From: a virus
UHGV virus genome: UHGV-0224761
Length of the DNA: 41,003 nt
Strand: one strand, 5' to 3'
In this document: positions 1 to 40,631 of the stretch, in pieces
How the letters are laid out: each line of letters opens with the position of its first letter
Numbering within the stretch: position 1 is the first letter of the stretch
Program-made: the position numbers and the translations under genes
Notes under the pieces: model-generated
What the model was told of the DNA's origin: nothing
The model's database searches: none
The model's input: only the letters and a program-made list of their open reading frames with translations

Positions 1-555
1 GCCGCCCTGTGTCAGCAGGGTAATTGCGTCATCCACCGGATGCATCAGGTACCAGGTTTTATTGCTCTGCTTGGTGATCTTAAATACACCCTCTGACAAC
101 TGAATTCCGCCATTCTTAATGCTCCAGCCCTGCGCAGCAGCGTCTCCGGCTGTCGGCAACAGGGAGATTGTGCGTACGGATGCATCTTCAGACGGCCCCG
201 ATGGCGTGTCGCCACCGGGCGAGGGTTTGATTTCCGGTGCCTTACCACTGATGAAGGCTGAGGTGCGCCCGGCTGCGTTCAGAATAGCGGTTGCCATACG
301 ATCCGGAATAATGCTCCTGCGCGCCCATGAACTGAAATGTGTCGGGCGGTTTGATGATACCTGGTTTCCATTCGTTCTCGATGCCGCACCGTAATATCCT
401 GATGCCGGAATATCCGGATCTTCTGCCGGTGCGTTAGTGGCGGTATTGACGCCGTTACCGTCTGTCATGAAGGGCACAAAATAAACGCCCTCACTCTCCC
501 TGTTTTTATACCCGCCGTACACGGTGTCGTACTGGGTAGCGTATGTATTTTTCCA
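1..555 (-). pseudogene. 3' fragment of a host SGNH/sialate-O-acetylesterase-like gene cut by the prophage; continues past the left edge of the window
   Basis: Minus-strand frame with no start codon reads ...WKNTYATQYDTVYGGYK...FVPFMTDGNG...HFSSWARR..., collinear with the C-terminal half of the 684-aa paralogue at 35366..37420. It joins in frame with the 5' fragment at 39779..40631 once the prophage is removed. Confidence 0.7.
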
Positions 556-560
556 GTAAT
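556..560. repeat. Left copy of a putative 5-bp target-site duplication (GTAAT)
   Basis: Lies immediately outside the TG-initiated prophage end; matches ATAAT at 39774..39778 in 4 of 5 positions, and either copy restores the codons TAT-TAC/TAT-TGG of the interrupted gene. Confidence 0.55.
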
Positions 561-1961: not shown

Positions 1962-4052
1962 ATGTGGGTAACAGCAAAAGAATGTGTTGGTCTTCCTGAT
2001 TTACCAATGATGGAACATAACATTCGCCATCGACTCACAAAAGCAGCTGCGGGAAATGCAGCCATGTTACGCAAACGTAAGGGGACAAAAGCAATCGAAT
2101 TTAATATCGATTGTTTGCCTTCTGGCGCGCAACAAGTATTGCGTGAACGTTATGCCCTTCAACTGATGACGCAAAAAGCTGATGAATCACCGGCTCCGGT
2201 GGTGACAAAGGCCAGACGCTCATCTGCCGTGGTTGATGCGGTGGAGGCATATCGCGGATCACCACAACTGATGCTCGAACGCCTCAATGCCCTGACTGAA
2301 AACCAGCGCCAGGTGGCTGATGCACGAATCGCGATCGTCAGCGAAGTTCTGAAAGTCGCGCAACAACCTGGTTTCAGCTGTGCGAAGGCTATCCGGTTTA
2401 TCGTTGACAACCTGGCACGTTCGCAACTGGACGAGCGCATTGTGGCAATGGTTGAGACGGCGAACGCCAAAAAGGGAAACAGCCGTGCGTTGAGTGAAAT
2501 CACGCTGAAACGCTGGATTGCGGCCTTTAACAAGGCACAGAACGCCGCTGAACGCCTGCTTTTACTGGCACCGGGTAAACGCCAGGAAATAAAAGCCGAA
2601 GATATTAACTGGCTGCCCGAATTTCTGGCGCAGTATCGCCAGTCAAACGGCCGACCAATGACCGAGGCTTACGAGGATTTTGTTGCTGAATGGCAGCACC
2701 GGCACGCTGATGAGCCTTATATGCTCGATATCATGCCCTCTTATGACACCATTCGCCGCGCAATGAAGAAACTGCCGGAAGTGGTGAAACAAAAAGGCCG
2801 GGTAACTGGCAGTGAATACCGTCAGCTTGAGGGATTCACGCGCCGCGACTGGTCCAGAATGCCGGTGAATTATGTCTGGATTGGTGACGGTCACGGCATG
2901 AAGCTGAAATGCGCGCACCCGGTTCACGGGCGGCCATTCGCACCGGAAGTGACCTTTGTTATCGACGGTGGCACGCGCTTTGTGGTGGGCTGGAGCCTTG
3001 ACCTGGCTGAAAATGTTTTCGCCGTAGCCGGTGCCATACAGCACGGTATTCGCCATCATGGCAAACCGTTTCTGTATTACTCGGATAATGGCTCCGGGGA
3101 AACCGCCGACGTCCTGGATAAGGAGATTGTGGGGATACTGCCACGACTGGGGATTAATCACCCGACAGGGATTGCCGGTAATCCGCAGGGACGGGGCATT
3201 ATCGAACGGCTTAACCGCACATTACCGATGCGCATAGCCCGTAAATACCGCACCTATTTCGGGAAAGGAGCAGATCGCGAGACGTTACGTAAAACCAACC
3301 GCGATTTACGCTCGGCATTCAGTGCCCTGCAACAGGGCAAACGGCTGAACGCCCGGCAGCAGTCAGCGATGCGTGATTTACCGTCCTGGTCTGAACTGAT
3401 TGATGCCATTCGTGACGGTGTTGAGTGGTACAACAACCGGCCGCACGATGAATTACCCATGAAGCCGAACGGTAAACATTACAGCCCGGCGGAGTTCAGA
3501 AAAAAACGCCTGGCGGAAGAGGACACGGAAATTGAATGGCTGTCCGATGTTGAACTGCGGGATATGTTCCGGCCGATGGTGGAGCGCCCTGTAAGACGCT
3601 GTGAAATACGCTGGCTGAATAATATTTACTACGCGCCCGAGCTGCGTGACGAGCATGGCCGTAAGGTACTTATCAGCTATGACATTCATGATGCCGAACG
3701 AATTACCGTGCGCCGCCCGGATGGCAGCGTGATTTGCGAGGCGGTATGGGACGGCAATAAACGCGAAGCCTTCCCTGTCAGCGCGGAATACTACAAACAG
3801 CAGCAGCGCCTTAAAGGCATGCGTAAACGCGCAGAGGAAAAAATCCGTGATGCCGAGGATGAGGTTGTCAACGTGCTGGAGCACAAGCCGCAGGAGCCCT
3901 GGCTGGAAAACATATACCGCCCTGTGGGTAATACGGTGACCGTTCAGCAACCGGTCGCTGACGATGAACCTGATGAAGAATACGAGCGTAATTTCCAGCG
4001 GGGATTGCAACTGCTCGAAGCGAAATTAAAAGAAAGTGATCCGCTGGCCTGA
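1962..4052 (+). CDS. A: MuA-type DDE transposase
   Basis: 696 aa; N-terminus MWVTAKECVGLPDLP resembles the MuA N-terminus; central ...WIGDGHGMKL... DDE-core-like region; Mu position. Confidence 0.9.
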   Translation: MWVTAKECVGLPDLPMMEHNIRHRLTKAAAGNAAMLRKRKGTKAIEFNIDCLPSGAQQVLRERYALQLMTQKADESPAPVVTKARRSSAVVDAVEAYRGSPQLMLERLNALTENQRQVADARIAIVSEVLKVAQQPGFSCAKAIRFIVDNLARSQLDERIVAMVETANAKKGNSRALSEITLKRWIAAFNKAQNAAERLLLLAPGKRQEIKAEDINWLPEFLAQYRQSNGRPMTEAYEDFVAEWQHRHADEPYMLDIMPSYDTIRRAMKKLPEVVKQKGRVTGSEYRQLEGFTRRDWSRMPVNYVWIGDGHGMKLKCAHPVHGRPFAPEVTFVIDGGTRFVVGWSLDLAENVFAVAGAIQHGIRHHGKPFLYYSDNGSGETADVLDKEIVGILPRLGINHPTGIAGNPQGRGIIERLNRTLPMRIARKYRTYFGKGADRETLRKTNRDLRSAFSALQQGKRLNARQQSAMRDLPSWSELIDAIRDGVEWYNNRPHDELPMKPNGKHYSPAEFRKKRLAEEDTEIEWLSDVELRDMFRPMVERPVRRCEIRWLNNIYYAPELRDEHGRKVLISYDIHDAERITVRRPDGSVICEAVWDGNKREAFPVSAEYYKQQQRLKGMRKRAEEKIRDAEDEVVNVLEHKPQEPWLENIYRPVGNTVTVQQPVADDEPDEEYERNFQRGLQLLEAKLKESDPLA

Positions 4053-4125
4053 AATAAAAAAATAACCCGAGGGGTGACTCAGGTTATTTGAGGTTTCAGT
4101 CTCGGAGAATGCTGTCTCAAGCGAG

Positions 4126-5067
4126 GTGAATAATATGACCGATATTAACGATGTAATCAAGACCATTGATGAACTTATTGATGGCGGCGTACTGACGCAG
4201 TATGCCATCGCCAGAGAGGCGGGAATTTCCGACGGCACATTATCGGCTTTCCGTAAGGGAAAATATAAAGGCGATAACGCTGCTGTGGCTGCTTCCCTGC
4301 GCTCCTGGTATGAGAACTGGAATAAACAAAGCGCACTGCCGGAACCGCCGCAGTTTGTGGAAACTCAGACAGTCCAGGAGCTGCGCGCACTGTTTCAGGC
4401 GGTTCGCCTGATGGGCTGTATTAACGTTATTGTGGGCGTACCGGGTGTGGGTAAAACGGCCACTGCCCGTAATTACTGCCAGGAGCAACCAAACACCTGG
4501 ATGATCACCCTGTCACCCGCGCACTCCAGCGTCACGGAGTGTCTGCTGGAGCTGGCCGATGCGCTGGGGATTGATTACACCCGCGCGAACAAAGGGGCAT
4601 TATCCCGCGCCATCCGCCGTCGCCTGATGGGAACGCGTGGACTGGTGATTGTGGATGAGGCGGATCATCTTGGTATTGACGGTCTGGAGCAACTCCGGGC
4701 AATTCAGGACGCCACGGGGATCGGGATGGTGCTTATTGGTAACCCGCGCGGATTGTTTAAAGGTGGACGCCGCGCCTTTGATGATTTATCGCGCCTGTTC
4801 AGCCGTCTTGCCCGTACAAAACAACTTCGCAAGGCCAAAAAGGCGGATGTGCTGGCCATTGCCATGGCGTGGGGGATCAGTGGTGAGGCTGAGCTGGCCG
4901 TCATGCAGGCTATCGCTGAAAAGCCGGGAGCGTTACGCGTTCTGACACATACGCTTAACCAGGCGTGGCTCACCGCCAGCGGTGAAGGCGCGGCGCTGAC
5001 AGAAAAACATATTAATGCGGCCTTTAAAGAGGTTTATACCAACCCTGAATTACTCTCACAGGTGTGA
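4126..5067 (+). CDS. B: MuB-type AAA+ transposition target-DNA activator
   Basis: 313 aa; N-terminal HTH (ISDGTLSAFRKGKYKGDN), Walker A GVPGVGKT, Walker B VIVDEADHL; collinear with Mu B. Confidence 0.9.
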   Translation: MNNMTDINDVIKTIDELIDGGVLTQYAIAREAGISDGTLSAFRKGKYKGDNAAVAASLRSWYENWNKQSALPEPPQFVETQTVQELRALFQAVRLMGCINVIVGVPGVGKTATARNYCQEQPNTWMITLSPAHSSVTECLLELADALGIDYTRANKGALSRAIRRRLMGTRGLVIVDEADHLGIDGLEQLRAIQDATGIGMVLIGNPRGLFKGGRRAFDDLSRLFSRLARTKQLRKAKKADVLAIAMAWGISGEAELAVMQAIAEKPGALRVLTHTLNQAWLTASGEGAALTEKHINAAFKEVYTNPELLSQV

Positions 5068-5069
5068 TT

Positions 5070-5291
5070 ATGGCGGTATTTAATATTCCTGATATTTACG
5101 GACGCTTTTACCTGGTTAATTTCGATAACGTGAAGGTGATTTCACTGGCCGAAAATAAAGAATGTGGCGATTTACTTTTTGAATTTAATGACCGCACACG
5201 AATGGTGATATCTGCCGGACTTGATCGCGAAGGTGCGACAGAAGTTTACAGCGGAATATGCCGTTCTGTTGGTGCGAAACAAGTCAGCTAA
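5070..5291 (+). CDS. Hypothetical small early protein (kil position)
   Basis: ORF overlapping the B stop codon; assigned by position only. Confidence 0.4.
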   Translation: MAVFNIPDIYGRFYLVNFDNVKVISLAENKECGDLLFEFNDRTRMVISAGLDREGATEVYSGICRSVGAKQVS

Positions 5292-5303
5292 ATGAGGTGT
5301 TAT

Positions 5304-5558
5304 ATGAATATGCAATCCTGCGGTAACAAAATGAATTTATTCGACTCCCTGAACAGCGCGCGCCGTCTGACCGAACTTGCCGGTGCGGTACTGGAACGCA
5401 GTAAGCGCTATCCGCAACGTTTTGCACTGAAAACCACGCCGCCGGTAGGCAACGTGCAGGGAACCGGTGAAATTGAAATCACCATACAGACCAACGGCCT
5501 GCGCCGCCGTGTGAAGGCCACCCGCATCAGCGGCTGCACGGTTTACTGGGAGGTGTGA
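5304..5558 (+). CDS. Hypothetical early protein
   Basis: ORF with RBS gaggtg; compact early operon. Confidence 0.4.
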   Translation: MNMQSCGNKMNLFDSLNSARRLTELAGAVLERSKRYPQRFALKTTPPVGNVQGTGEIEITIQTNGLRRRVKATRISGCTVYWEV

Positions 5559-5559
5559 G

Positions 5560-5841
5560 GTGAAAAAAAATCTCATTGCATGGGCGTGGTCGAGTGGTCT
5601 TATTGAGTTTGGTTACGTCCTGCCGGAAGGTGCATTGCCGATAGTTGCCGGAAAGCCTGCCACGGTACGGCATGTGATTGAGGTTATGGCGCGTCATGGA
5701 CGTGATGAACAGGAGCAGTTACTGGTTCCGGGGATACCGGAAGCGGTGACGGAGGAAGAAGCCTTTAATGCCATGATTCGGTTCTGCCGTGAGGTTAGAC
5801 GCCGGGTCAGTTATCCAAACAGAACGAGGACCAGAGGATGA
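5560..5841 (+). CDS. Hypothetical early protein (GTG start)
   Basis: ORF with RBS ggaggtg; start codon overlaps the upstream stop. Confidence 0.4.
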   Translation: MKKNLIAWAWSSGLIEFGYVLPEGALPIVAGKPATVRHVIEVMARHGRDEQEQLLVPGIPEAVTEEEAFNAMIRFCREVRRRVSYPNRTRTRG

Positions 5842-6110
5842 GTAAAGTCGTACGCATTATTTTCGAATATAAGGAGCACGTTATCCATAAAAACGCTGAT
5901 GGAACAGTGCGCATGGGGGTAAGTCTGGACATACGTTCAACCGGGATAAAGCAGAAAGGTGATGGACCCGCCATGATTTTTGGGGTGGTTATGCTGGCAG
6001 AAAGCAGAAACTTCGCAGAGTTTGTGGCAATGAAAGCCAGTGCATTCATGAAAGACAGAGGCATGACTTCCGGGGTTATTAACGGTAATGAATTTAATCA
6101 ACAGGGGTAA
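5838..6110 (+). CDS. Hypothetical early protein, paralogue 1 (MSKVVRIIFEY...)
   Basis: ORF with RBS agagg; N-terminus similar to the next gene. Confidence 0.45.
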   Translation: MSKVVRIIFEYKEHVIHKNADGTVRMGVSLDIRSTGIKQKGDGPAMIFGVVMLAESRNFAEFVAMKASAFMKDRGMTSGVINGNEFNQQG

Positions 6111-6114
6111 TTCC

Positions 6115-6408
6115 ATGAGCAAAGTACGCGTTATTTTTGAATTTAATCATGTTTCGCATGACGAAAAGTTGGCAGGCAATGACTGTGTTGAAGTGCATGA
6201 AAAGATTGGAGTGGATGTGAAAACAGAACGTGATACGGATAACAGGCCGACGTCACTCTGTGACGTTTATGCAAGTATTCTCCAGTATCACAGTCCTGCA
6301 ATTATTCAGTTTCTCTCAGCGGAATTTCAGGCATCTGCACAGTCTTTTGGAGCGGATGCCATCATTAAACGCCACCGCGTGCATAAAGCATCAGGCACAC
6401 TGCAATAA
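6115..6408 (+). CDS. Hypothetical early protein, paralogue 2 (MSKVRVIFEF...)
   Basis: Internal ATG of the 6088 ORF gives an N-terminus paralogous to the preceding gene. Confidence 0.45.
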   Translation: MSKVRVIFEFNHVSHDEKLAGNDCVEVHEKIGVDVKTERDTDNRPTSLCDVYASILQYHSPAIIQFLSAEFQASAQSFGADAIIKRHRVHKASGTLQ

Positions 6409-6419
6409 GGAAAAACAAA

Positions 6420-6950
6420 ATGGCTAAACGCGTTACAAAATTAAAGGCCGCAGCCGAGGCGGCACCGCAGACCCGGGAAGAAGTCAGCCGTGATATCCGC
6501 ACCCTGGGAGATATTCAGCGAGAGGCGCTGCGCCTGGAAACGGCGATGAATGACGAAGTGGCAGAAATCACCGCCCGTTATACGCCGCAGATTGAAAATC
6601 TTAAAAAGCAAATCAAAGTGCTTTTTAAAGGGATTCAGGACTGGTGCAAAACCAACCGTGATGAGCTGACGAACGGCGGCAAAACCAAAACAGCCAATCT
6701 GACCACCGGAACGGTGTCATGGCGGCTGGGAACGCCATCATGCAGCGTCAGCCGTGATGTGGAAGGTGTGATTGAAATGCTGCGCCGTATGGGGCTTGAG
6801 CGTTTCATCCGCACGAAAGAGGAAGTGAACAAGGAAGCCGTCCTGGCGGAGCCGGATGCTGTGAAAGGCATTGCCGGTATCAAGGTGAATAAAGGCGCTG
6901 AAAGTTTTTATGTCGAGCCTTTTGAACAGGACGCCGGACTGAATAAATAA
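6420..6950 (+). CDS. gam: Gam host-nuclease inhibitor (Ku-like DNA-end-binding)
   Basis: 176 aa; ...GDIQREALRLETAMNDEVAEIT... and ...NRDELTNGGKTKTANLTTGTVSWR...RFIRTKEEVNKEA... closely parallel Mu Gam. Confidence 0.9.
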   Translation: MAKRVTKLKAAAEAAPQTREEVSRDIRTLGDIQREALRLETAMNDEVAEITARYTPQIENLKKQIKVLFKGIQDWCKTNRDELTNGGKTKTANLTTGTVSWRLGTPSCSVSRDVEGVIEMLRRMGLERFIRTKEEVNKEAVLAEPDAVKGIAGIKVNKGAESFYVEPFEQDAGLNK

Positions 6951-35365: not shown

Positions 35366-37420
35366 ATGTCAGACTCCAAGTGGAAAATGCTCTCCGCCAT
35401 GCCCGGAGAGTTTTCAGTCAAGGTTGCCGGTGGCACGGTGGCATTTATTGAAAGCCCTTTCCGCCCTTCGGGTAATAAAGGGGGGATCACCTTCGCAGAC
35501 TGCGTGATCCGCTTCAGCACGAAAGAGCCATTATGGGTAATGCCGGTATCCGGTAATCCCAGTGCAGAAATCACCAGTTCAGGCGTGACTGGCATCATTC
35601 CAATCACATCTGACGTGGCCGGAACGCTCACGCCCTCCGACTGGAATGCACCGGATAACGCCGGGCCTTCCGGTAGCACGAATGGCAGCAGTTCAGAGCC
35701 GGAATATTACTTTGTTGTCATTCTCGCGGGTCAGTCAAATGGCATGGCCTACGGCGAGGGGCTGCCGTTACCGGATTCGTTTGACCGCCCGGACCCACGC
35801 ATTAAGCAACTGGCACGCCGCAGTACGGTAACGCCCAACGGTACGTCGTGTACATACAACGACATCATTCCGGCAGACCACTGCCTGCATGATGTTCAGG
35901 ATATGAGCGGGATAAACCACCCGAAAGCTGATCTGGCAAAAGGCCAGTACGGGACTGTCGGTCAGGGGTTGCATATTGCCAAAAAACTGCTTCCCTATAT
36001 CCCACAGAATGCCGGGATACTTCTGGTGCCCTGTTGTCGTGGCGGGTCAGCATTCACCACTGGAGCCGACGGCTCATTCAGTGAGGCCAGCGGTGCTTCC
36101 GCTGATTCTTCACGCTGGGGGGCCGGTAAACCTCTGTATCAGGACCTGGTAAGCCGCACCAAAGTCGCGCTGGCGAAAAACCCGAAAAACAAACTTCTGG
36201 CTGTGGTCTGGATGCAGGGAGAGGCAGACCTTGCCTCAGGAAGCCAGCAGCATAATAGTTTATTCACGGCCATGGTTCAGCAGTTCAGAACTGACCTGGC
36301 TCCGCTTGCTGCGCAGTGCGTGAGTGGAAATGCCACCACGGTGCCGTGGATTTGCGGTGATACCACGTATTACTGGAAAAACGCTGGCACCGATAAATAT
36401 GAGGCAGTATACGGTGGCTACAAAGGCAAGGAAGCACAGAAAATTTTCTTTGTACCGTTCCTGACGGATGAGAATGGACAGAGCACGCCAACGAATGCTC
36501 CGGCGGAAGACCCGGATATTGTGGCTGTCGGGTATTACGGTGCAGCATCCCGAACCCAGGGCAGTTTTGTTTCGACACAGCGTGACAGCCATTTCAGCTC
36601 ATGGGCACGCAGGGGCGTCATTTCAGACCGTCTGGCCTCAGCTATTATGCTCCATGCAGGGCGCACGGCTGAACTGATGCGCGGGCAGACCGTGACACCA
36701 CCGGATGAGAAGCCGTCACCTGATACACCATCAAAACCGTCCACGCCACCCGCAGACACCACGACGATGAGTACGCTATTTGCTTACCGGGCATCTGAGT
36801 CTGAAGGACGGTTGACACCACAGGGTTGGGCTGCCGGAGGTGGCAAGGCTCAAATCGTGGATGATGCCGGAGCCAGCGGGGGTAAGGCAATGAAACTGAC
36901 CAAGGAAACAGGAAGAGCCCCCTGGTACCTTGAGCATGATGCTGGTAATGGTGCGGACCTGCTGGGTAAAGGTGGTCTTGTCAGTTGTCGTTTTAAACTC
37001 GATGGCGCGCTTACGGCTAATCAGTACGCACTGGCGCTGTACTGGCCGGTTTCTGCCCTGCCGCAAGGGGTTACTCTGGAAGGAAATGCCGGTCATAACC
37101 TGCTGGCATCGTTCTACGTACAGAGCGATGCCACAGACCTTAACGTGATGTATCACAAAGGAAACACGGCGCAGAACACGAAGCTGGGGTCATTCGGCGC
37201 ATTTAATAACGAATGGCATACGCTGGGCTTCCGTTTTGCCGGTAACAACAGTATTGAGGTGACGCCGGTCATTGATGGTAAGGACGGGACACCATTCATG
37301 CTGTCGCAGTCTCCGGTCGGCACGTTTACGGCAGACAAGTTGCGCGTGACCGATATCACTAAAAATGCGACTTACCCGGTACTGATTGACAGTATCGTGG
37401 TGGAAGTGAATAACGCGTAA
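35366..37420 (+). CDS. SGNH-hydrolase / sialate-O-acetylesterase-like protein (NanS-p-like) with a long C-terminal domain; prophage cargo
   Basis: 684 aa; SGNH block I ...VVILAGQSNGMAYGEG...; paralogous to the host gene fragments at both prophage junctions. Confidence 0.7.
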   Translation: MSDSKWKMLSAMPGEFSVKVAGGTVAFIESPFRPSGNKGGITFADCVIRFSTKEPLWVMPVSGNPSAEITSSGVTGIIPITSDVAGTLTPSDWNAPDNAGPSGSTNGSSSEPEYYFVVILAGQSNGMAYGEGLPLPDSFDRPDPRIKQLARRSTVTPNGTSCTYNDIIPADHCLHDVQDMSGINHPKADLAKGQYGTVGQGLHIAKKLLPYIPQNAGILLVPCCRGGSAFTTGADGSFSEASGASADSSRWGAGKPLYQDLVSRTKVALAKNPKNKLLAVVWMQGEADLASGSQQHNSLFTAMVQQFRTDLAPLAAQCVSGNATTVPWICGDTTYYWKNAGTDKYEAVYGGYKGKEAQKIFFVPFLTDENGQSTPTNAPAEDPDIVAVGYYGAASRTQGSFVSTQRDSHFSSWARRGVISDRLASAIMLHAGRTAELMRGQTVTPPDEKPSPDTPSKPSTPPADTTTMSTLFAYRASESEGRLTPQGWAAGGGKAQIVDDAGASGGKAMKLTKETGRAPWYLEHDAGNGADLLGKGGLVSCRFKLDGALTANQYALALYWPVSALPQGVTLEGNAGHNLLASFYVQSDATDLNVMYHKGNTAQNTKLGSFGAFNNEWHTLGFRFAGNNSIEVTPVIDGKDGTPFMLSQSPVGTFTADKLRVTDITKNATYPVLIDSIVVEVNNA

Positions 37421-37428
37421 GCAGGATA

Positions 37429-37467
37429 AAAAAATGCCGCCGGTAAGGGAAAACAAGAAACCGGCGG
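37429..37467. terminator. Hairpin after the esterase gene (T-run on the minus strand)
   Basis: 9-bp stem gccgccggt...accggcggc preceded by an A7 run on the plus strand, which is a T-run on the minus strand. Confidence 0.45.
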
Positions 37468-37552
37468 CAAAAAGATCGTTATATCCAAAGCAAAAAATGC
37501 AGTGCACCTTTTTACCTAACAGATATTACCGGTGTCAACACCATGTCAATAA

Positions 37553-37747
37553 TTGGGAGGGATAATGACATTTTTACAGCTTATTTTATTGTATTTCTGC
37601 ACGGCAGTATGTGCGTTATATCTGGTGAGTGGTGGTTATAAGGCCATCAGAAATTATGTTCGCCGCAAAATTGAGGACGCAGCAGCTGAAAAACTCAGTA
37701 AAACAGCGCAGGTAACTCCGCTCCCAAAAGACCCGACCCAGCCCTGA
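37553..37747 (+). CDS. Small single-pass membrane protein (cargo)
   Basis: 64 aa; N-terminal hydrophobic helix FLQLILLYFCTAVCALYLV; strong RBS gggaggg. Confidence 0.5.
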   Translation: MGGIMTFLQLILLYFCTAVCALYLVSGGYKAIRNYVRRKIEDAAAEKLSKTAQVTPLPKDPTQP

Positions 37748-37782
37748 TTGCAGGGCTTTATTCCCGCATAAGGAGGATATAC

Positions 37783-38037
37783 ATGCCAGAAATTAAAGGC
37801 ACCGTCACTGAAGACCTGGTAAAACAGGCACTGTATTCCGGTGAAGTAAATAAGTTGCTGAAAGCGCAGGTCCGCAAGGATTTTGAGGCACAAATCGACA
37901 CTTACGTTGATGAAGTGCTGGCAAAACTTATTGGGCCAGCAGTTGCGGCCAGTGATGCTGATAATGAGCCGAAAACCGACGCGCAGCCAGAGCAACCAGA
38001 CCCGGCTCAGCCCGGAACTGACAGTACCATGATGTAA
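37783..38037 (+). CDS. Small acidic protein with a disordered Pro/Asp/Glu-rich tail (cargo)
   Basis: 84 aa; strong RBS aggagg. Confidence 0.5.
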   Translation: MPEIKGTVTEDLVKQALYSGEVNKLLKAQVRKDFEAQIDTYVDEVLAKLIGPAVAASDADNEPKTDAQPEQPDPAQPGTDSTMM

Positions 38038-38204
38038 CAATACAAACCGGTGGTGTCCTCTGCCGGTTTGACACTAATGAAAACATCTTTGCCGCTATCC
38101 AGCCATATGTAATCGCTGGATAGTATTTCGTATTCAGAAATATAGCTGCTTATGGAGCAGTCAATCCTGCTTCCCCATCCGGGCAGGCAAATGAACCGGT
38201 ATCA

Positions 38205-38498
38205 TTAGTCCGATTCACGCTTTTGTAGAATCGTTCCCAGAATGCTATACAGCTCATTAGCCTGTTGCTCCATCATTGAGACGGAGGCTATACGGTGCAA
38301 AGTGATTTCAGGAGGTGGCACACCTCCATCTTCTTGCTGTGGAGGAAAAACATAAGATTTAATAAAAAAGTTGAAGCATATGAACTCTCCCGCACTCGAA
38401 CTGTATTTGCAGGCATCTGAATAATCGGAAAAATAATCATTATAGATTTCCGCATTTTCAATCATTTTTCGATTTCTCGTCGTTACATGATTGTCCAT
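38205..38498 (-). CDS. Hypothetical protein in an AT-rich island (cargo, reverse orientation)
   Basis: 97-aa ORF on the minus strand; the surrounding 38040..38710 region is AT-rich compared with the rest of the prophage. Confidence 0.45.
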   Translation of the reverse strand: MDNHVTTRNRKMIENAEIYNDYFSDYSDACKYSSSAGEFICFNFFIKSYVFPPQQEDGGVPPPEITLHRIASVSMMEQQANELYSILGTILQKRESD

Positions 38499-38686
38499 AG
38501 CAGCCTCTTACGCTGGCAATTAACCAATTGACTTCTATAAATTAGTTGATTTGTTTGCTTTGCGGTATTCAAATGTACAATCATTCAGCACTTATGCGTT
38601 ACAGCACCGTTTAAAATTAGTGATCAAACTCATAAATTTTCGCTAATGACATTTCGTGTTATTTGTTGTATCAATTAAATAAATCA

Positions 38687-38711
38687 AATCGATCGTTTTT
38701 GTCGATCGATT
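38687..38711. promoter_or_regulatory. Perfect palindrome AATCGATCG-N7-CGATCGATT with two GATC sites upstream of com
   Basis: 9-bp inverted repeat with GATC at 38691..38694 and 38705..38708. Confidence 0.5.
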
Positions 38712-38754
38712 GAGTGATAAAGATATCAACAACAAAGCAGGAGGTTATGCGGCC

Positions 38755-38955
38755 ATGTATCGAAACATACGGTGCCGACATTGTAACAAGCTACTGGCAC
38801 GAGCCAGCTTCAGTTATCTGGAAGTTAAATGTCCGCGCTGTAAAACCCTCAATCAAATCACATCTCAGAGCGCCACAGAGCACCCCACATACACAAGGAA
38901 ATCCTGTCGTGGGGAACAGAAAGCAAGTTACATCCCGTATCATCAGCACGCCTGA
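38755..38955 (+). CDS. com: Com zinc-finger translational activator of mom
   Basis: ...[30 protein letters not shown]...EHPT parallels the Mu Com Cys4 zinc finger; the track ORF begins upstream at 38710 with a non-ATG start. Confidence 0.8.
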
Positions 38956-39646
38956 ACTTATTCACTATAACGACAATATCGTCGGTTATGGCTCCCGTGA
39001 GTTACGGGTTGAGACAATAAGTTGCTGGCTGGCCCGGCTGGTCGTCGTCAATAAACATTACAGCCATCGTTTCGTAAATAATTCCTACCTTCATCTGGGC
39101 ATATTTTCAGAACGGGAGCTGGTTGGCGTAATGCAATGGGGTTATGCCCTTAATCCAAACAATGGTGCACGCGTCGTAACTGGCACGCAGAACCGCGAAT
39201 ATATGGAGCTTAACCGGTTATGGCTGCATGACTGTATGCCGAGAAACTCCGAATCAAGGGCAATCAGTTACGCGCTCAAACTAATCAGACAACTTTATCC
39301 GCAGGTGCAGTGGGTTCAGTCGTTTGCAGATGAGCGTTGTGGCTGTCTTGGTGTCGTGTACCAGGCAAGCAATTTTGATTATGTAGGCAGTCATGAAACA
39401 ACATTCTATGAACTTGATGGCGAGTGGTATCACGAGATTTGCAAGAATGCAATCAAACGAGGAGGACAGCGAGGTGAACATCTGCGGGCTAATATCGACA
39501 GAGCCAGTGTTCATAAATTCCGTCAGTTTCGTTACATCCGGTTTCTGGACAAGAGAGCCAGAAAACGCCTTAACACAAAGCTATTCAAAGTCCAGCCTTA
39601 CCCAAAACCACAAACAGTTAAAACTGGTTTGAAAGAGAGTGAATGA
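38909..39646 (+). CDS. mom: Mom-like DNA modification protein
   Basis: Start overlaps the 3' end of com and it is the last gene before the right end, as in Mu; GTG start after RBS aagga lying inside a palindrome aggaaatcct. Start is approximate (the track ORF extends upstream to 38714). Confidence 0.55.
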
Positions 39647-39773: not shown

Positions 39774-39778
39774 ATAAT
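39774..39778. repeat. Right copy of the putative 5-bp target-site duplication (ATAAT)
   Basis: Pairs with GTAAT at 556..560. Confidence 0.55.
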
Positions 39779-40631
39779 ACGTCGTGTCACCACAAATCCA
39801 CGGCACATTTACAGCACTGCCACCATGACACTGCGCGTTAAACACAGTGAGGTCAGCACGAAACTGCTTCAGCATGGCTGTAAACAGCGCAGGTTGCTGT
39901 GCGTAGGTGGCGGCGCTCATGTCAAACTCTCCCTGCATCCAGCACACCGCCAGCAACACATTTTTCGGGTTCTTCTGTAATGCAGCTTTAGTGCGCGCAA
40001 TCAGGTCCTGATATAACGGTTTACCCACCCCCCAGCGCGCCGAATCCTGGCTGGCCCCCGCGTCCGCACTGAATGTCCCCTCCGCGCCCCGGGTGAATGC
40101 CGAACCACCACGACAGCATGGTACCAGCAGGATCCCCGCGTTATTCGGGATATACGGGAGCAGTTTTTTGGCAATATGTAAGCCCTGGCCGACACAGCCG
40201 TACTGCCCTTTGCTCAGGTCTGCCTTCGGATGATTCAGCGTACTCATATCCTGCACATCATGCAGACAGTGGTCAGCCGGGATGATGTCGTTATACGTAC
40301 AACTCTCTCCACCCGGAGTTACCGTGCTGCGGCGCGCCAGCTGTTTAATGCGCGGATCCGGAGCATCGTAAGAATCCGGTAACGGAAGCCCTTCACCGTA
40401 GGCCATGCCGTTGGACTGTCCGGCAAGCACAACCACGTAGAACCAGTCCGGCTCAGATGAAGGGCCGACCTGTGGATCTCCTTCAATAGCCACCGCCTGC
40501 ATCAGTGTGTACGGCGTAATGGCAACCGGTCCGCCATATGGCTGCCAGCCCTCTTTCAGTTTGTGTGTCAGCTTTTCCGCAAGGTCTGACGGCGACGCCG
40601 CCCTGACAACATCATAGTGTTTAAATGCCAT
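39779..40631 (-). pseudogene. 5' fragment of the host SGNH/sialate-O-acetylesterase-like gene cut by the prophage
   Basis: N-terminal about 285 aa ending ...VNVPWICGDTTYY; in the track ORF (39753..40631) the last six codons (IARRFF-stop) are read from prophage-end sequence; SGNH motif VVVLAGQSNGMAYGEG. Confidence 0.7.

What the first reader, a model, noticed from the sequence alone, without database searches (positions are those of the whole stretch)
37421..38709. AT-rich cargo island with three small uncharacterised genes between the esterase and com-mom
A small single-pass membrane protein (37553..37747), a small acidic protein with a disordered tail (37783..38037) and a reverse-oriented 97-aa gene (38205..38498) sit in a region noticeably more AT-rich than the phage backbone, at the classic moron position next to the right end. 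Membrane-protein-plus-partner pairs at such positions are often superinfection-exclusion, toxin-antitoxin or abortive-infection modules. Nothing in the sequences identifies a known family to me.
Basis: inference. Interest (0 to 1): 0.5.

Follow-up and report, generated by a model that had tools for sequence, protein, structure and literature searches.

The report
Esterase cassette tail plus orphan moron
This AT-rich stretch is not one three-gene island: it is the end of a sialic-acid-esterase cassette that E. coli Mu-like and Shiga-toxin-type prophages share (a known small RNA plus two catalogued proteins of unknown function), followed by a swappable slot holding one orphan gene, so it is mostly ordinary.

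Summary
All three ORFs exist, and the region is AT-rich (42.6% GC against 53.7% for the window). It is three juxtaposed units, not one island.

1. **Cassette tail.** This is the tail of a NanS-p-type esterase cassette. The membrane protein is DUF1378 (PF07125) and the acidic protein is DUF826 (PF05696). In every neighbourhood where the upstream DNA was available they follow the esterase. A class II holin comes next in lambdoid prophages, and com-mom comes next in Mu-like ones. The esterase–DUF1378 spacer also holds, on the opposite strand, a homologue of the Hfq-bound EHEC sRNA EcOnc33.

2. **Variable slot (38072–38645).** At least four unrelated contents, or none, occur here in related prophages. 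In this window it holds ORF C (97 aa). ORF C is a true ORFan confined to E. coli/Shigella Mu-like prophages, and it is under purifying selection.

3. **com-mom control region.** The conserved region starts at 38646.

No toxin–antitoxin, abortive-infection or defence family is detectable. The moron reading fits ORF C only. The function of all three proteins remains unknown.

The parts
35366..37420 (+). NanS-p-type sialate O-acetylesterase (context, outside the finding). It has SASA and DUF6645 domains, and a Mu-lineage-specific N-terminal stretch of about 100 aa in place of DUF1737.
   Evidence: Pfam SASA 51 bits and DUF6645 226 bits. 75% aa identity to the O157 lambdoid esterase from residue ~100 onward.
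37428..37503 (-). Candidate Hfq-type small RNA, a homologue of EcOnc33, about 76 nt. Its -35 box TTGACA is at 37538-37533 and its -10 box TAAAAA at 37514-37509 (18-nt spacer). It has a 10-bp GC-rich terminator hairpin followed by U7, abutting the esterase stop codon.
   Evidence: Hairpin -23 kcal/mol, z = -4.3. 67 of 85 aligned positions are identical to the Sakai Sp6 sequence targeted by the published EcOnc33 Northern probe, and 30 of 35 within the probe site. Promoter plus terminator are present on the same strand in 24 of 27 distinct spacer variants, 55 of 61 loci. The RNA ends are predicted, not mapped.
37565..37747 (+). DUF1378 family protein, 60 aa. One N-terminal transmembrane helix (residues 3-24) and a basic juxtamembrane segment. 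Predicted topology is N-out / C-in.
   Evidence: PF07125 109 bits, E 9e-32, model positions 1-58 of 59; phrog_494. dN/dS 0.24. Invariant LLYF..LYL.SGGY motif.
37783..38037 (+). DUF826 family protein, 84 aa, acidic. It has a long helix followed by a Pro/Glu/Gln-rich disordered tail that ends in a conserved hydrophobic dipeptide (MM, or L in some homologues).
   Evidence: PF05696 58.7 bits; phrog_311. AF2 pLDDT about 90 for residues 20-50 and below 50 from residue 61. dN/dS 0.16-0.40. Alignment.
38043..38070 (.). Conserved hairpin that closes the cassette. Homology among Mu-like prophages ends just after it.
   Evidence: -16.7 kcal/mol, z = -2.7 on the + strand. The first ~34 bp after the DUF826 stop are shared between prophages that then diverge.
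38072..38645 (.). Variable slot, 39.5% GC. Its content differs between sister Mu-like prophages.
   Evidence: blastn between slots shows only the two flanks are shared. Alternative contents are listed. The slot is deleted in L068/L069. This version is present in 18 of 5426 complete E. coli genomes, against 233 genomes that carry the conserved com upstream region.
38205..38498 (-). ORF C, a 97-aa soluble acidic ORFan (pI 4.7), followed on its own strand by several hairpins (38085-38200).
   Evidence: Only 14 clusters among 5.8e9 proteins, all E. coli/Shigella and at least 79% identical. Exhaustive HMMER over 1.84e9 representatives returns only those. No Pfam, PHROG, PADLOC or PDB match. No tblastn hit in 50,697 phage records. 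dN/dS 0.36, binomial p = 0.006. The downstream structure has z = -3.3.
38646..38754 (+). Conserved com-mom upstream (regulatory) region. It includes a GATC-containing palindrome at 38687-38711.
   Evidence: 89-92% identical across otherwise different Mu-like prophages, starting 109 bp before the com ATG. The palindrome was reported. Assignment as the mom control region rests on analogy with phage Mu (my own knowledge, not tested).
38755..39646 (+). com (38755-38955) and mom (38909-39646), for context.
   Evidence: Zn_ribbon_Com 48 bits and Mom 260 bits. The mom start is placed by analogy with the 47-nt com/mom overlap annotated in sister prophages.

Best explanation
SHOWN. The interval is a composite of three units.

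1. Cassette tail. This is the 3' part of a mobile 'NanS-p esterase cassette' that E. coli Mu-like prophages share with lambdoid (Stx-type) prophages. It consists of an antisense EcOnc33-family small RNA gene in the esterase-DUF1378 spacer, then DUF1378 (a tiny N-out/C-in membrane protein), then DUF826 (a helical acidic protein with a disordered tail), closed by a conserved hairpin. The order esterase > DUF1378 > DUF826 is kept in both phage backbones despite divergence to 75%, 65% and 37% identity. Both small genes are under purifying selection.

2. Variable slot. A 574-bp slot holds different reverse-oriented genes in different Mu-like prophages. Here it holds ORF C, a lineage-restricted ORFan under purifying selection.

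3. Control region. The conserved com-mom control region follows.

INFERRED, with rough probabilities.
- DUF1378 and DUF826 act as a pair at the inner membrane during phage late gene expression, as accessories of the esterase cassette. They could, for instance, tune when or how the signal-less esterase reaches the outside. They are not a defence or toxin-antitoxin module. Probability about 0.35; no direct evidence.
- The sRNA is made in the lysogen, like EcOnc33 and EcOnc37 in strain Sakai, and acts through Hfq on host or cassette transcripts. Probability about 0.6.
- ORF C is an independently transcribed moron expressed from the prophage, with an accessory role such as exclusion, defence or counter-defence. 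Probability about 0.4 for the moron status; the specific role is unknown.
For: Family membership.

Synteny:
- O157 lambdoid locus.
- 16 neighbourhoods with precomputed Pfam labels, all esterase > DUF1378 > DUF826 > Phage_holin_2_1.
- 41 IMG/VR loci. All that include the upstream DNA show the trio, followed either by the holin or by the slot plus com-mom.
- Sakai Sp18 and Sp6.

Divergence and selection.

Narrow host range (Escherichia/Shigella plus one Citrobacter cluster).

sRNA:
- The EcOnc33 probe maps exactly to the same spacer, on the opposite strand, in Sp6. The window sequence is homologous to it.
- Tree et al. 2014 (PMC4104026, Table S2) list EcOnc33 as Hfq-crosslinked, with a Northern band of about 71 nt.
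- EcOnc37, in the Mu-like prophage Sp18, falls on the equivalent terminator once the ~128-nt offset between genome versions is applied.
- The validated EPEC sRNAs PasA and PasC occupy the analogous position (PMC8550237 Table S6).

Slot.

ORF C.
Against: - No experiment or homology says what DUF1378, DUF826 or ORF C do.
- The esterase core recombines independently of the two small genes. For example, L062 has the esterase at 93% identity but DUF826 at 46%, and L044 has the esterase at 52% but DUF826 at 72%. Co-inheritance could therefore be positional rather than functional.
- EPEC prophages PP2 and PP5 carry a NanS-p esterase followed by PasA or PasC, and in PP2 by the holin, without DUF1378 or DUF826. 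The pair is therefore not required by every esterase.
- The sRNA 5' end and its expression in this strain are predictions. Its promoter lies close to the DUF1378 ribosome-binding site, which could by itself explain part of the conservation.
- No convincing sigma-70 promoter was found for ORF C.
- The AF2 model of ORF C is unusable (pLDDT 50).
Confidence: 0.7

Rival explanations
1. The three genes form one prophage-expressed protective module (superinfection exclusion, toxin-antitoxin or abortive infection), with the membrane protein as effector and a neighbour as its partner.
For: - The region is AT-rich and lies next to the prophage right end.
- It has a small membrane protein followed 35 nt later by a small acidic protein.
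- The neighbouring slot changes content between prophages and always holds reverse-oriented genes, as defence hotspots do.
Against: - DUF1378 and DUF826 are fixed partners of the esterase in lambdoid late operons as well as in Mu-like prophages.
- No PADLOC hit was found. The single 12.9-bit PbeC match (E 0.008) covers only a short internal stretch of a 643-position model.
- No toxin or antitoxin Pfam family was found.
- ORF C is on the other strand, varies independently, and can be absent.
Confidence: 0.12
2. DUF1378 and DUF826 are lysis-timing accessories (antiholin-like or holin modulators) of the class II pinholin cassette. They were simply carried into the Mu-like lineage together with the esterase.
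For: - In all 16 lambdoid neighbourhoods and all 8 lambdoid IMG/VR loci they lie directly upstream of the Phage_holin_2_1 gene, within the late operon.
- DUF1378 has holin-like gross features: a single transmembrane helix and a charged cytoplasmic tail.
Against: - They are retained under purifying selection in at least 233 E. coli genomes with Mu-like prophages. There they sit between gin and com, with no holin beside them.
- EPEC PP2 has the esterase and a class II holin without them.
Confidence: 0.2
3. ORF C is not a gene. It is a chance open frame in AT-rich spacer DNA, and the slot is non-coding or regulatory.
For: - No homologue exists outside a handful of near-identical E. coli/Shigella sequences.
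- No family or structure match was found.
- The AF2 model is poor.
- RefSeq and this analysis disagree on the start codon.
- The upstream non-coding DNA is more conserved (93%) than the ORF's downstream flank.
Against: - The frame is open over its full length in the 80%-identical orthologue, with a conserved start and Shine-Dalgarno sequence.
- Substitutions are biased towards synonymous changes: dN/dS 0.36, p = 0.006.
- Residues 13-90 are almost invariant, while the two termini vary.
Confidence: 0.15

Closest known systems
nanS-p region of Stx/lambdoid prophages (Q - stx - nanS-p - [DUF1378, DUF826] - S holin), e.g. phage 933W and Sakai Sp5/Sp6
   Same: Same three genes in the same order and orientation, with the same spacer sRNA. 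The esterase core is 75% identical, DUF1378 65% and DUF826 37%. PMC10462455 notes DUF826 and DUF1378 ORFs between nanS-p and S.
   Different: Here the cassette sits in a Mu-like transposable prophage between gin and com-mom. No holin follows it. The esterase has lost the DUF1737 N-terminal domain in favour of a lineage-specific one. A full-text search for 'nanS-p' together with 'Mu-like' returned no paper.
EcOnc33 (Hfq-bound sRNA of E. coli O157:H7 Sakai prophage Sp6; Tree et al. 2014)
   Same: Same spacer, same strand relative to the genes, same promoter and terminator layout and similar length. 67 of 85 aligned positions are identical.
   Different: The window copy differs at 5 of 35 probe positions and has a shorter terminator loop. 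Its expression, Hfq binding and targets are not known. EcOnc33 itself has no described function.
PasA / PasC sRNAs of EPEC E2348/69
   Same: Both are short Hfq-dependent sRNAs transcribed antisense, just downstream of a prophage sialic-acid esterase gene. The PasC terminator abuts the esterase stop codon, as the terminator does here.
   Different: No detectable sequence similarity. In those prophages DUF1378 and DUF826 are absent.
Phage morons (Juhala et al. 2000 concept)
   Same: ORF C is an extra gene lying between genes that are adjacent or differently separated in related phages. It has a deviant base composition and is flanked by hairpins.
   Different: A promoter and terminator specific to ORF C have not been demonstrated, and no phenotype is known.

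Membership tests
Pfam DUF1378 (PF07125) | Score above the curated gathering threshold over the full model length | tested here: met
   109.4 bits against a cut-off of 25; residues 1-58 match model positions 1-58 of 59. Also phrog_494, E 1e-32.
Pfam DUF826 (PF05696) | Score above the curated gathering threshold | tested here: met
   58.7 bits against a cut-off of 25; residues 1-57 match model positions 1-58 of 75. phrog_311, E 5e-28, full length.
NanS-p esterase cassette (esterase > DUF1378 > DUF826) | Conserved gene order and orientation immediately downstream of a SASA + DUF6645 esterase | tested here: met
   No exception was seen among loci with enough upstream sequence.
EcOnc33 sRNA | Sequence homology to the Northern-probed RNA, at the same position and on the same strand | tested here: met
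   The probe maps to L067 3240-3274. The window matches 30 of 35 positions in the probe site and 67 of 85 overall. Alignment of 11 variants.
EcOnc33 sRNA | Expression and Hfq association | not testable with these tools
   Known only for Sakai (PMC4104026 Table S2). Needs a Northern blot or CRAC/RIL-seq in this strain.
Rfam Esr41 (RF02676) | Covariance-model score at or above the gathering score | tested here: not met
   22.2 bits against 102, E 0.37. Esr41 is encoded on SpLE1, not in this context (PMC5286369). The match is terminator-driven.
PasA/PasC sRNAs | Sequence similarity to the E2348/69 genes | tested here: not met
   blastn-short finds nothing in the window spacer. The resemblance is positional only.
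Type II toxin-antitoxin module | A recognisable toxin or antitoxin domain in either partner | tested here: not met
   Only the DUF models hit; no toxin or antitoxin Pfam family.
Type II toxin-antitoxin module | Toxicity of one partner that is neutralised by the other | not testable with these tools
   Requires expression experiments.
Known anti-phage defence systems (PADLOC-DB v2) | Significant match to any defence-protein model | tested here: not met
   No hit for DUF1378, ORF C or the esterase. DUF826 gives a 12.9-bit partial PbeC match, E 0.008, judged to be noise. The alternative slot proteins also have no hit.
Holin / antiholin | Constant genetic linkage to an endolysin or holin cassette | tested here: not met
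   Linked in lambdoid phages, but not in the Mu-like lineage.
Moron (for ORF C) | Present or absent between conserved flanks in related phages, with deviant composition | tested here: met
   Slot boundaries and alternative contents. GC 39.5% against 53.7%.
Moron (for ORF C) | Own promoter and terminator | tested here: inconclusive
   No promoter reached the consensus threshold in the right place. Stable hairpins lie downstream. The upstream 150 bp are 93% conserved in the diverged orthologue.

The most novel reading that the evidence does not exclude
The slot between DUF826 and com would be a cargo hotspot of E. coli Mu-like prophages that collects single-gene, lysogen-expressed protective or counter-defence factors. 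ORF C, the 154-aa and 175-aa zinc-ribbon proteins and the 66-aa protein found there would be new, unrelated members of such functions. Alternatively, DUF1378 plus DUF826 would form a two-protein device that delivers the signal-less NanS-p esterase to the outside without full lysis.
Probability: 0.15. Interest if true: 0.6.

Novelty: new member of a known kind. Interest (0 to 1): 0.3.

Why it matters
NanS-p esterases let pathogenic E. coli feed on O-acetylated sialic acids from gut mucus, and STEC genomes carry many copies.

This analysis shows that two tiny proteins of unknown function and an Hfq-type sRNA travel with the esterase into a completely different phage type. That makes the trio, rather than the esterase alone, the sensible unit for future genetics. 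It also argues against testing the two small proteins first as a defence module.

The slot next to mom is a modest new lead for accessory genes of Mu-like prophages.

None of this overturns current understanding.

Tried and rejected
- **ORF C homology.** No match in Pfam, PHROGs, PADLOC, PDB sequences or 50,697 phage records (tblastn), and none beyond its own E. coli/Shigella clusters in the 5.8e9-protein word-indexed search and an exhaustive HMMER run over 1.84e9 representatives.
- **ORF C structure.** The AF2 model from 7 close homologues has pLDDT 50.5. No fold search was run because the result would be meaningless.
- **DUF826 structure.** The model is essentially one long helix plus disorder. 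A fold search was not run for the same reason.
- **PDB profile searches.** DUF826 and DUF1378 gave only noise, with E values of 0.05 or higher.
- **Species-representative genomes.** The scan with the DUF826 alignment found no confirmed relative.
- **DUF826 protein search.** It reached only the Mu-like subtype, at 63% identity or higher.
- **ORF C as a remnant.** I tested whether ORF C is a remnant of the longer reverse genes in the same slot. There is no similarity.
- **Esr41.** The weak Rfam hit was followed up and rejected.
- **PasA/PasC.** Identity with these sRNAs was tested and rejected.
- **Literature.** Searches for the Sakai locus tags and for 'nanS-p' with 'Mu-like' returned nothing.
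- **Rfam on related loci.** Gathering-threshold scans found STnc100 and AgvB upstream of the esterase, but no family in the esterase-DUF1378 spacer.

Full report
**What the window is.** The window holds a Mu-like prophage of E. coli, at roughly 561-39773.
- The 1.5 kb around the finding is 100% identical in 14 complete E. coli genomes.
- In those genomes RefSeq annotates, in order: a recombinase (gin), a DUF6645-domain protein, a DUF1378 family protein, a DUF826 domain protein, a reverse hypothetical protein, Com and Mom.

**Checking the observation.**
- All three ORFs are present.
The Pfam model aligns from residue 1 of the 60-aa product.
- The interval is 42.6% GC against 53.7% for the window, in the lowest 1.6% of equal-sized windows. 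The low values come mostly from ORF C (39.8%) and the ORF C-com spacer (34.4%). DUF826 is 50% GC.
- DUF1378 has one hydrophobic segment (residues 3-24) followed by five Lys/Arg, with pI 9.3. DUF826 has pI 4.2.
- The AF2 model of DUF826 has a short helix and a confident long helix (residues 20-50, pLDDT about 90), then a disordered tail.

**Family assignment.**
- The membrane protein is DUF1378 (PF07125, 109 bits; phrog_494). The acidic protein is DUF826 (PF05696, 59 bits; phrog_311). Both families have unknown function.
- ORF C matches nothing in Pfam, PHROGs or PADLOC.
- The upstream gene is a SASA + DUF6645 esterase of the NanS-p type.

**The two small forward genes belong to the esterase cassette.**
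- In an O157 lambdoid prophage the order is esterase, DUF1378, DUF826, class II holin, YdfR-family (DUF1327) protein, lysozyme.
- Sixteen neighbourhoods of diverged DUF1378 proteins, including one from Citrobacter, show the same order downstream of antiterminator Q.
- Among 41 IMG/VR loci found with a DUF826 alignment, every locus with enough upstream DNA has esterase-DUF1378-DUF826. Thirty-three are Mu-like, followed by the slot and com-mom where the contig extends that far. Eight are lambdoid and are followed by the holin.
- Sakai Sp18 (Mu-like) and Sp6 (lambda-like) show the two arrangements in one genome.
- Between the window and the lambdoid locus, the esterase core is 75% identical, DUF1378 65% and DUF826 37%.
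- dN/dS is 0.24 for DUF1378 and 0.16-0.40 for DUF826.
- Both families are essentially confined to Escherichia/Shigella.
- One paper notes these DUF ORFs between nanS-p and S in Stx2a phages (PMC10462455). No paper links nanS-p with Mu-like phages.

**Caveats on the cassette reading.**
- Esterase alleles recombine independently of the small genes.
- EPEC prophages PP2 and PP5 have an esterase with a diverged DUF6645 domain and no DUF1378 or DUF826.

**A missed element: an antisense sRNA gene.**
- The esterase-DUF1378 spacer has a strong hairpin (-23 kcal/mol, z about -4.3 to -4.5) whose U-tract is on the minus strand and abuts the esterase stop codon.
- Upstream on that strand lie TTGACA, an 18-nt spacer and TAAAAA.
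- Rfam gave only a sub-threshold Esr41 hit (22 bits against 102). I reject it, because Esr41 is encoded on SpLE1.
- Storz-lab and Margalit-lab work places the validated Hfq-dependent sRNAs PasA and PasC just downstream of prophage sialic-acid esterase genes, on the opposite strand. They share position with this spacer but no sequence.
- The decisive match is EcOnc33 from Tree et al. 2014. Its Northern probe is the exact reverse complement of the Sp6 spacer, and the window sequence is homologous to that spacer: 30 of 35 positions in the probe site and 67 of 85 over the predicted RNA.
- EcOnc33 was Hfq-crosslinked and gave a band of about 71 nt. The window predicts about 76 nt.
- The reported EcOnc33 coordinates differ from the current Sakai record by about 128 nt. 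Applying the same offset puts EcOnc37, listed for Sp18, on the terminator of the Sp18 spacer.
- Promoter-like and terminator elements co-occur on that strand in 24 of 27 distinct spacer variants (55 of 61 loci). This holds even where the sequences are otherwise unalignable, and one variant carries a compensatory stem change.

**The slot and ORF C.**
- Comparing five Mu-like prophages, homology stops about 34 bp after the DUF826 stop, just past a conserved hairpin. It resumes 109 bp before the com ATG. This defines a slot at 38072-38645.
- Contents seen in the slot:
  - ORF C, in this window and in 18 of 5426 complete genomes.
  - A 154-aa protein with a C-terminal CPxC...CPxC motif (Sp18 ECs_4996, often frameshifted).
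  - A 175-aa protein with an N-terminal zinc ribbon and a hydrophobic stretch that looks like a transmembrane helix.
  - A 66-aa forward ORF together with a truncated reverse gene.
  - Nothing, in L068/L069, where a deletion runs from within DUF826 to com.

- None of these proteins hits PADLOC or an informative Pfam family.
- ORF C has only 14 clusters in the 5.8e9-protein database, all E. coli/Shigella. An exhaustive HMMER run adds nothing.
- Against its 80%-identical orthologue, the frame, the start codon and the Shine-Dalgarno sequence are conserved. Substitutions are biased towards synonymous changes (dN/dS 0.36, p = 0.006), and changes cluster at the two termini.
- The RefSeq start (M12) is a Thr in the orthologue, so the 97-aa form is preferred.
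- The 150 bp upstream of ORF C are 93% conserved, more than its downstream flank at 80%. This hints at regulatory sequence, but no consensus promoter was found.
- The AF2 model is unusable.

**Interpretation.**
- The 'island' is the end of the esterase cassette, plus a one-gene moron slot, plus the start of the com-mom control region.
- The defence / toxin-antitoxin reading of the membrane-plus-partner pair has no support. It is disfavoured by the pair's constant association with the esterase and its placement in lambdoid late operons.
- A pure lysis-accessory role is disfavoured by the pair's retention far from any holin in Mu-like prophages.
- My best guess is an inner-membrane accessory pair for the esterase cassette. 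This is inference only.
- ORF C is a credible but uncharacterised moron.

**Verdict.** The finding is mostly explained by known, catalogued elements of unknown function. It is of low to moderate interest.

Noticed in passing
window 1-560 and 39774-40631 (minus strand): The Mu-like prophage (about 561-39773) is inserted inside a lambdoid nanS-p esterase gene. The right flank encodes its DUF1737 + SASA N-terminal 286 aa, and the left flank continues the same reading frame (YWKNTY...). The 5-bp target duplication is imperfect (GTAAT / ATAAT). The window therefore holds two esterase homologues in inverted orientation.
   Followed up: partly
L025 (IMGVR_UViG_2617270962_000007) 2696-6861: This is a hybrid arrangement. 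A lambdoid-type DUF1737 N-terminus and esterase core (93% identical) are joined to the Mu-type DUF1378, DUF826, ORF C, com and mom. This is what recombination between a prophage's own esterase and a resident lambdoid nanS-p would give.
   Followed up: no
window 35366-35680: The esterase of the Mu-like lineage replaces the DUF1737 N-terminal domain of lambdoid NanS-p with an unrelated stretch of about 100 aa that has no Pfam match. It starts 85 bp after gin. Whether the enzyme is soluble or virion-associated is unknown.
   Followed up: no
L066 4627-5091 (Sakai ECs_4996); L051 5285-5749; L004 4359-4886: These are the alternative slot genes. One is a 154-aa protein with a C-terminal double CPxC zinc-ribbon-like motif, frameshifted or truncated in several genomes. 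The other is a 175-aa protein with an N-terminal zinc ribbon followed by a hydrophobic stretch that looks like a transmembrane helix. Neither has a family assignment.
   Followed up: partly
window 38499-38660 (minus strand) compared with L039: The non-coding DNA upstream of ORF C is 93% identical between copies whose ORF C proteins are only 80% identical. This is unusually strong conservation for a spacer. It could be a divergent regulatory region shared with com-mom.
   Followed up: partly
L001 10456-10655 (JE86-ST05); window 38755-38955: RefSeq marks com as frameshifted in JE86-ST05, although it is an intact 66-aa ORF in this window. RefSeq also calls ORF C from an internal Met (86 aa).
   Followed up: no
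L002 3770-4039 and other lambdoid loci: Upstream of the lambdoid esterase lie STnc100 (plus strand) and AgvB (minus strand), both at Rfam gathering level. The esterase gene is therefore bracketed by sRNA genes on both sides in lambdoid prophages. No such RNAs were looked for upstream of the Mu-like esterase.
   Followed up: no
NZ_AP022815.1 (JE86-ST05): Three separate places in one chromosome match the region, which suggests several copies of this Mu-like prophage in a single genome.
   Followed up: no
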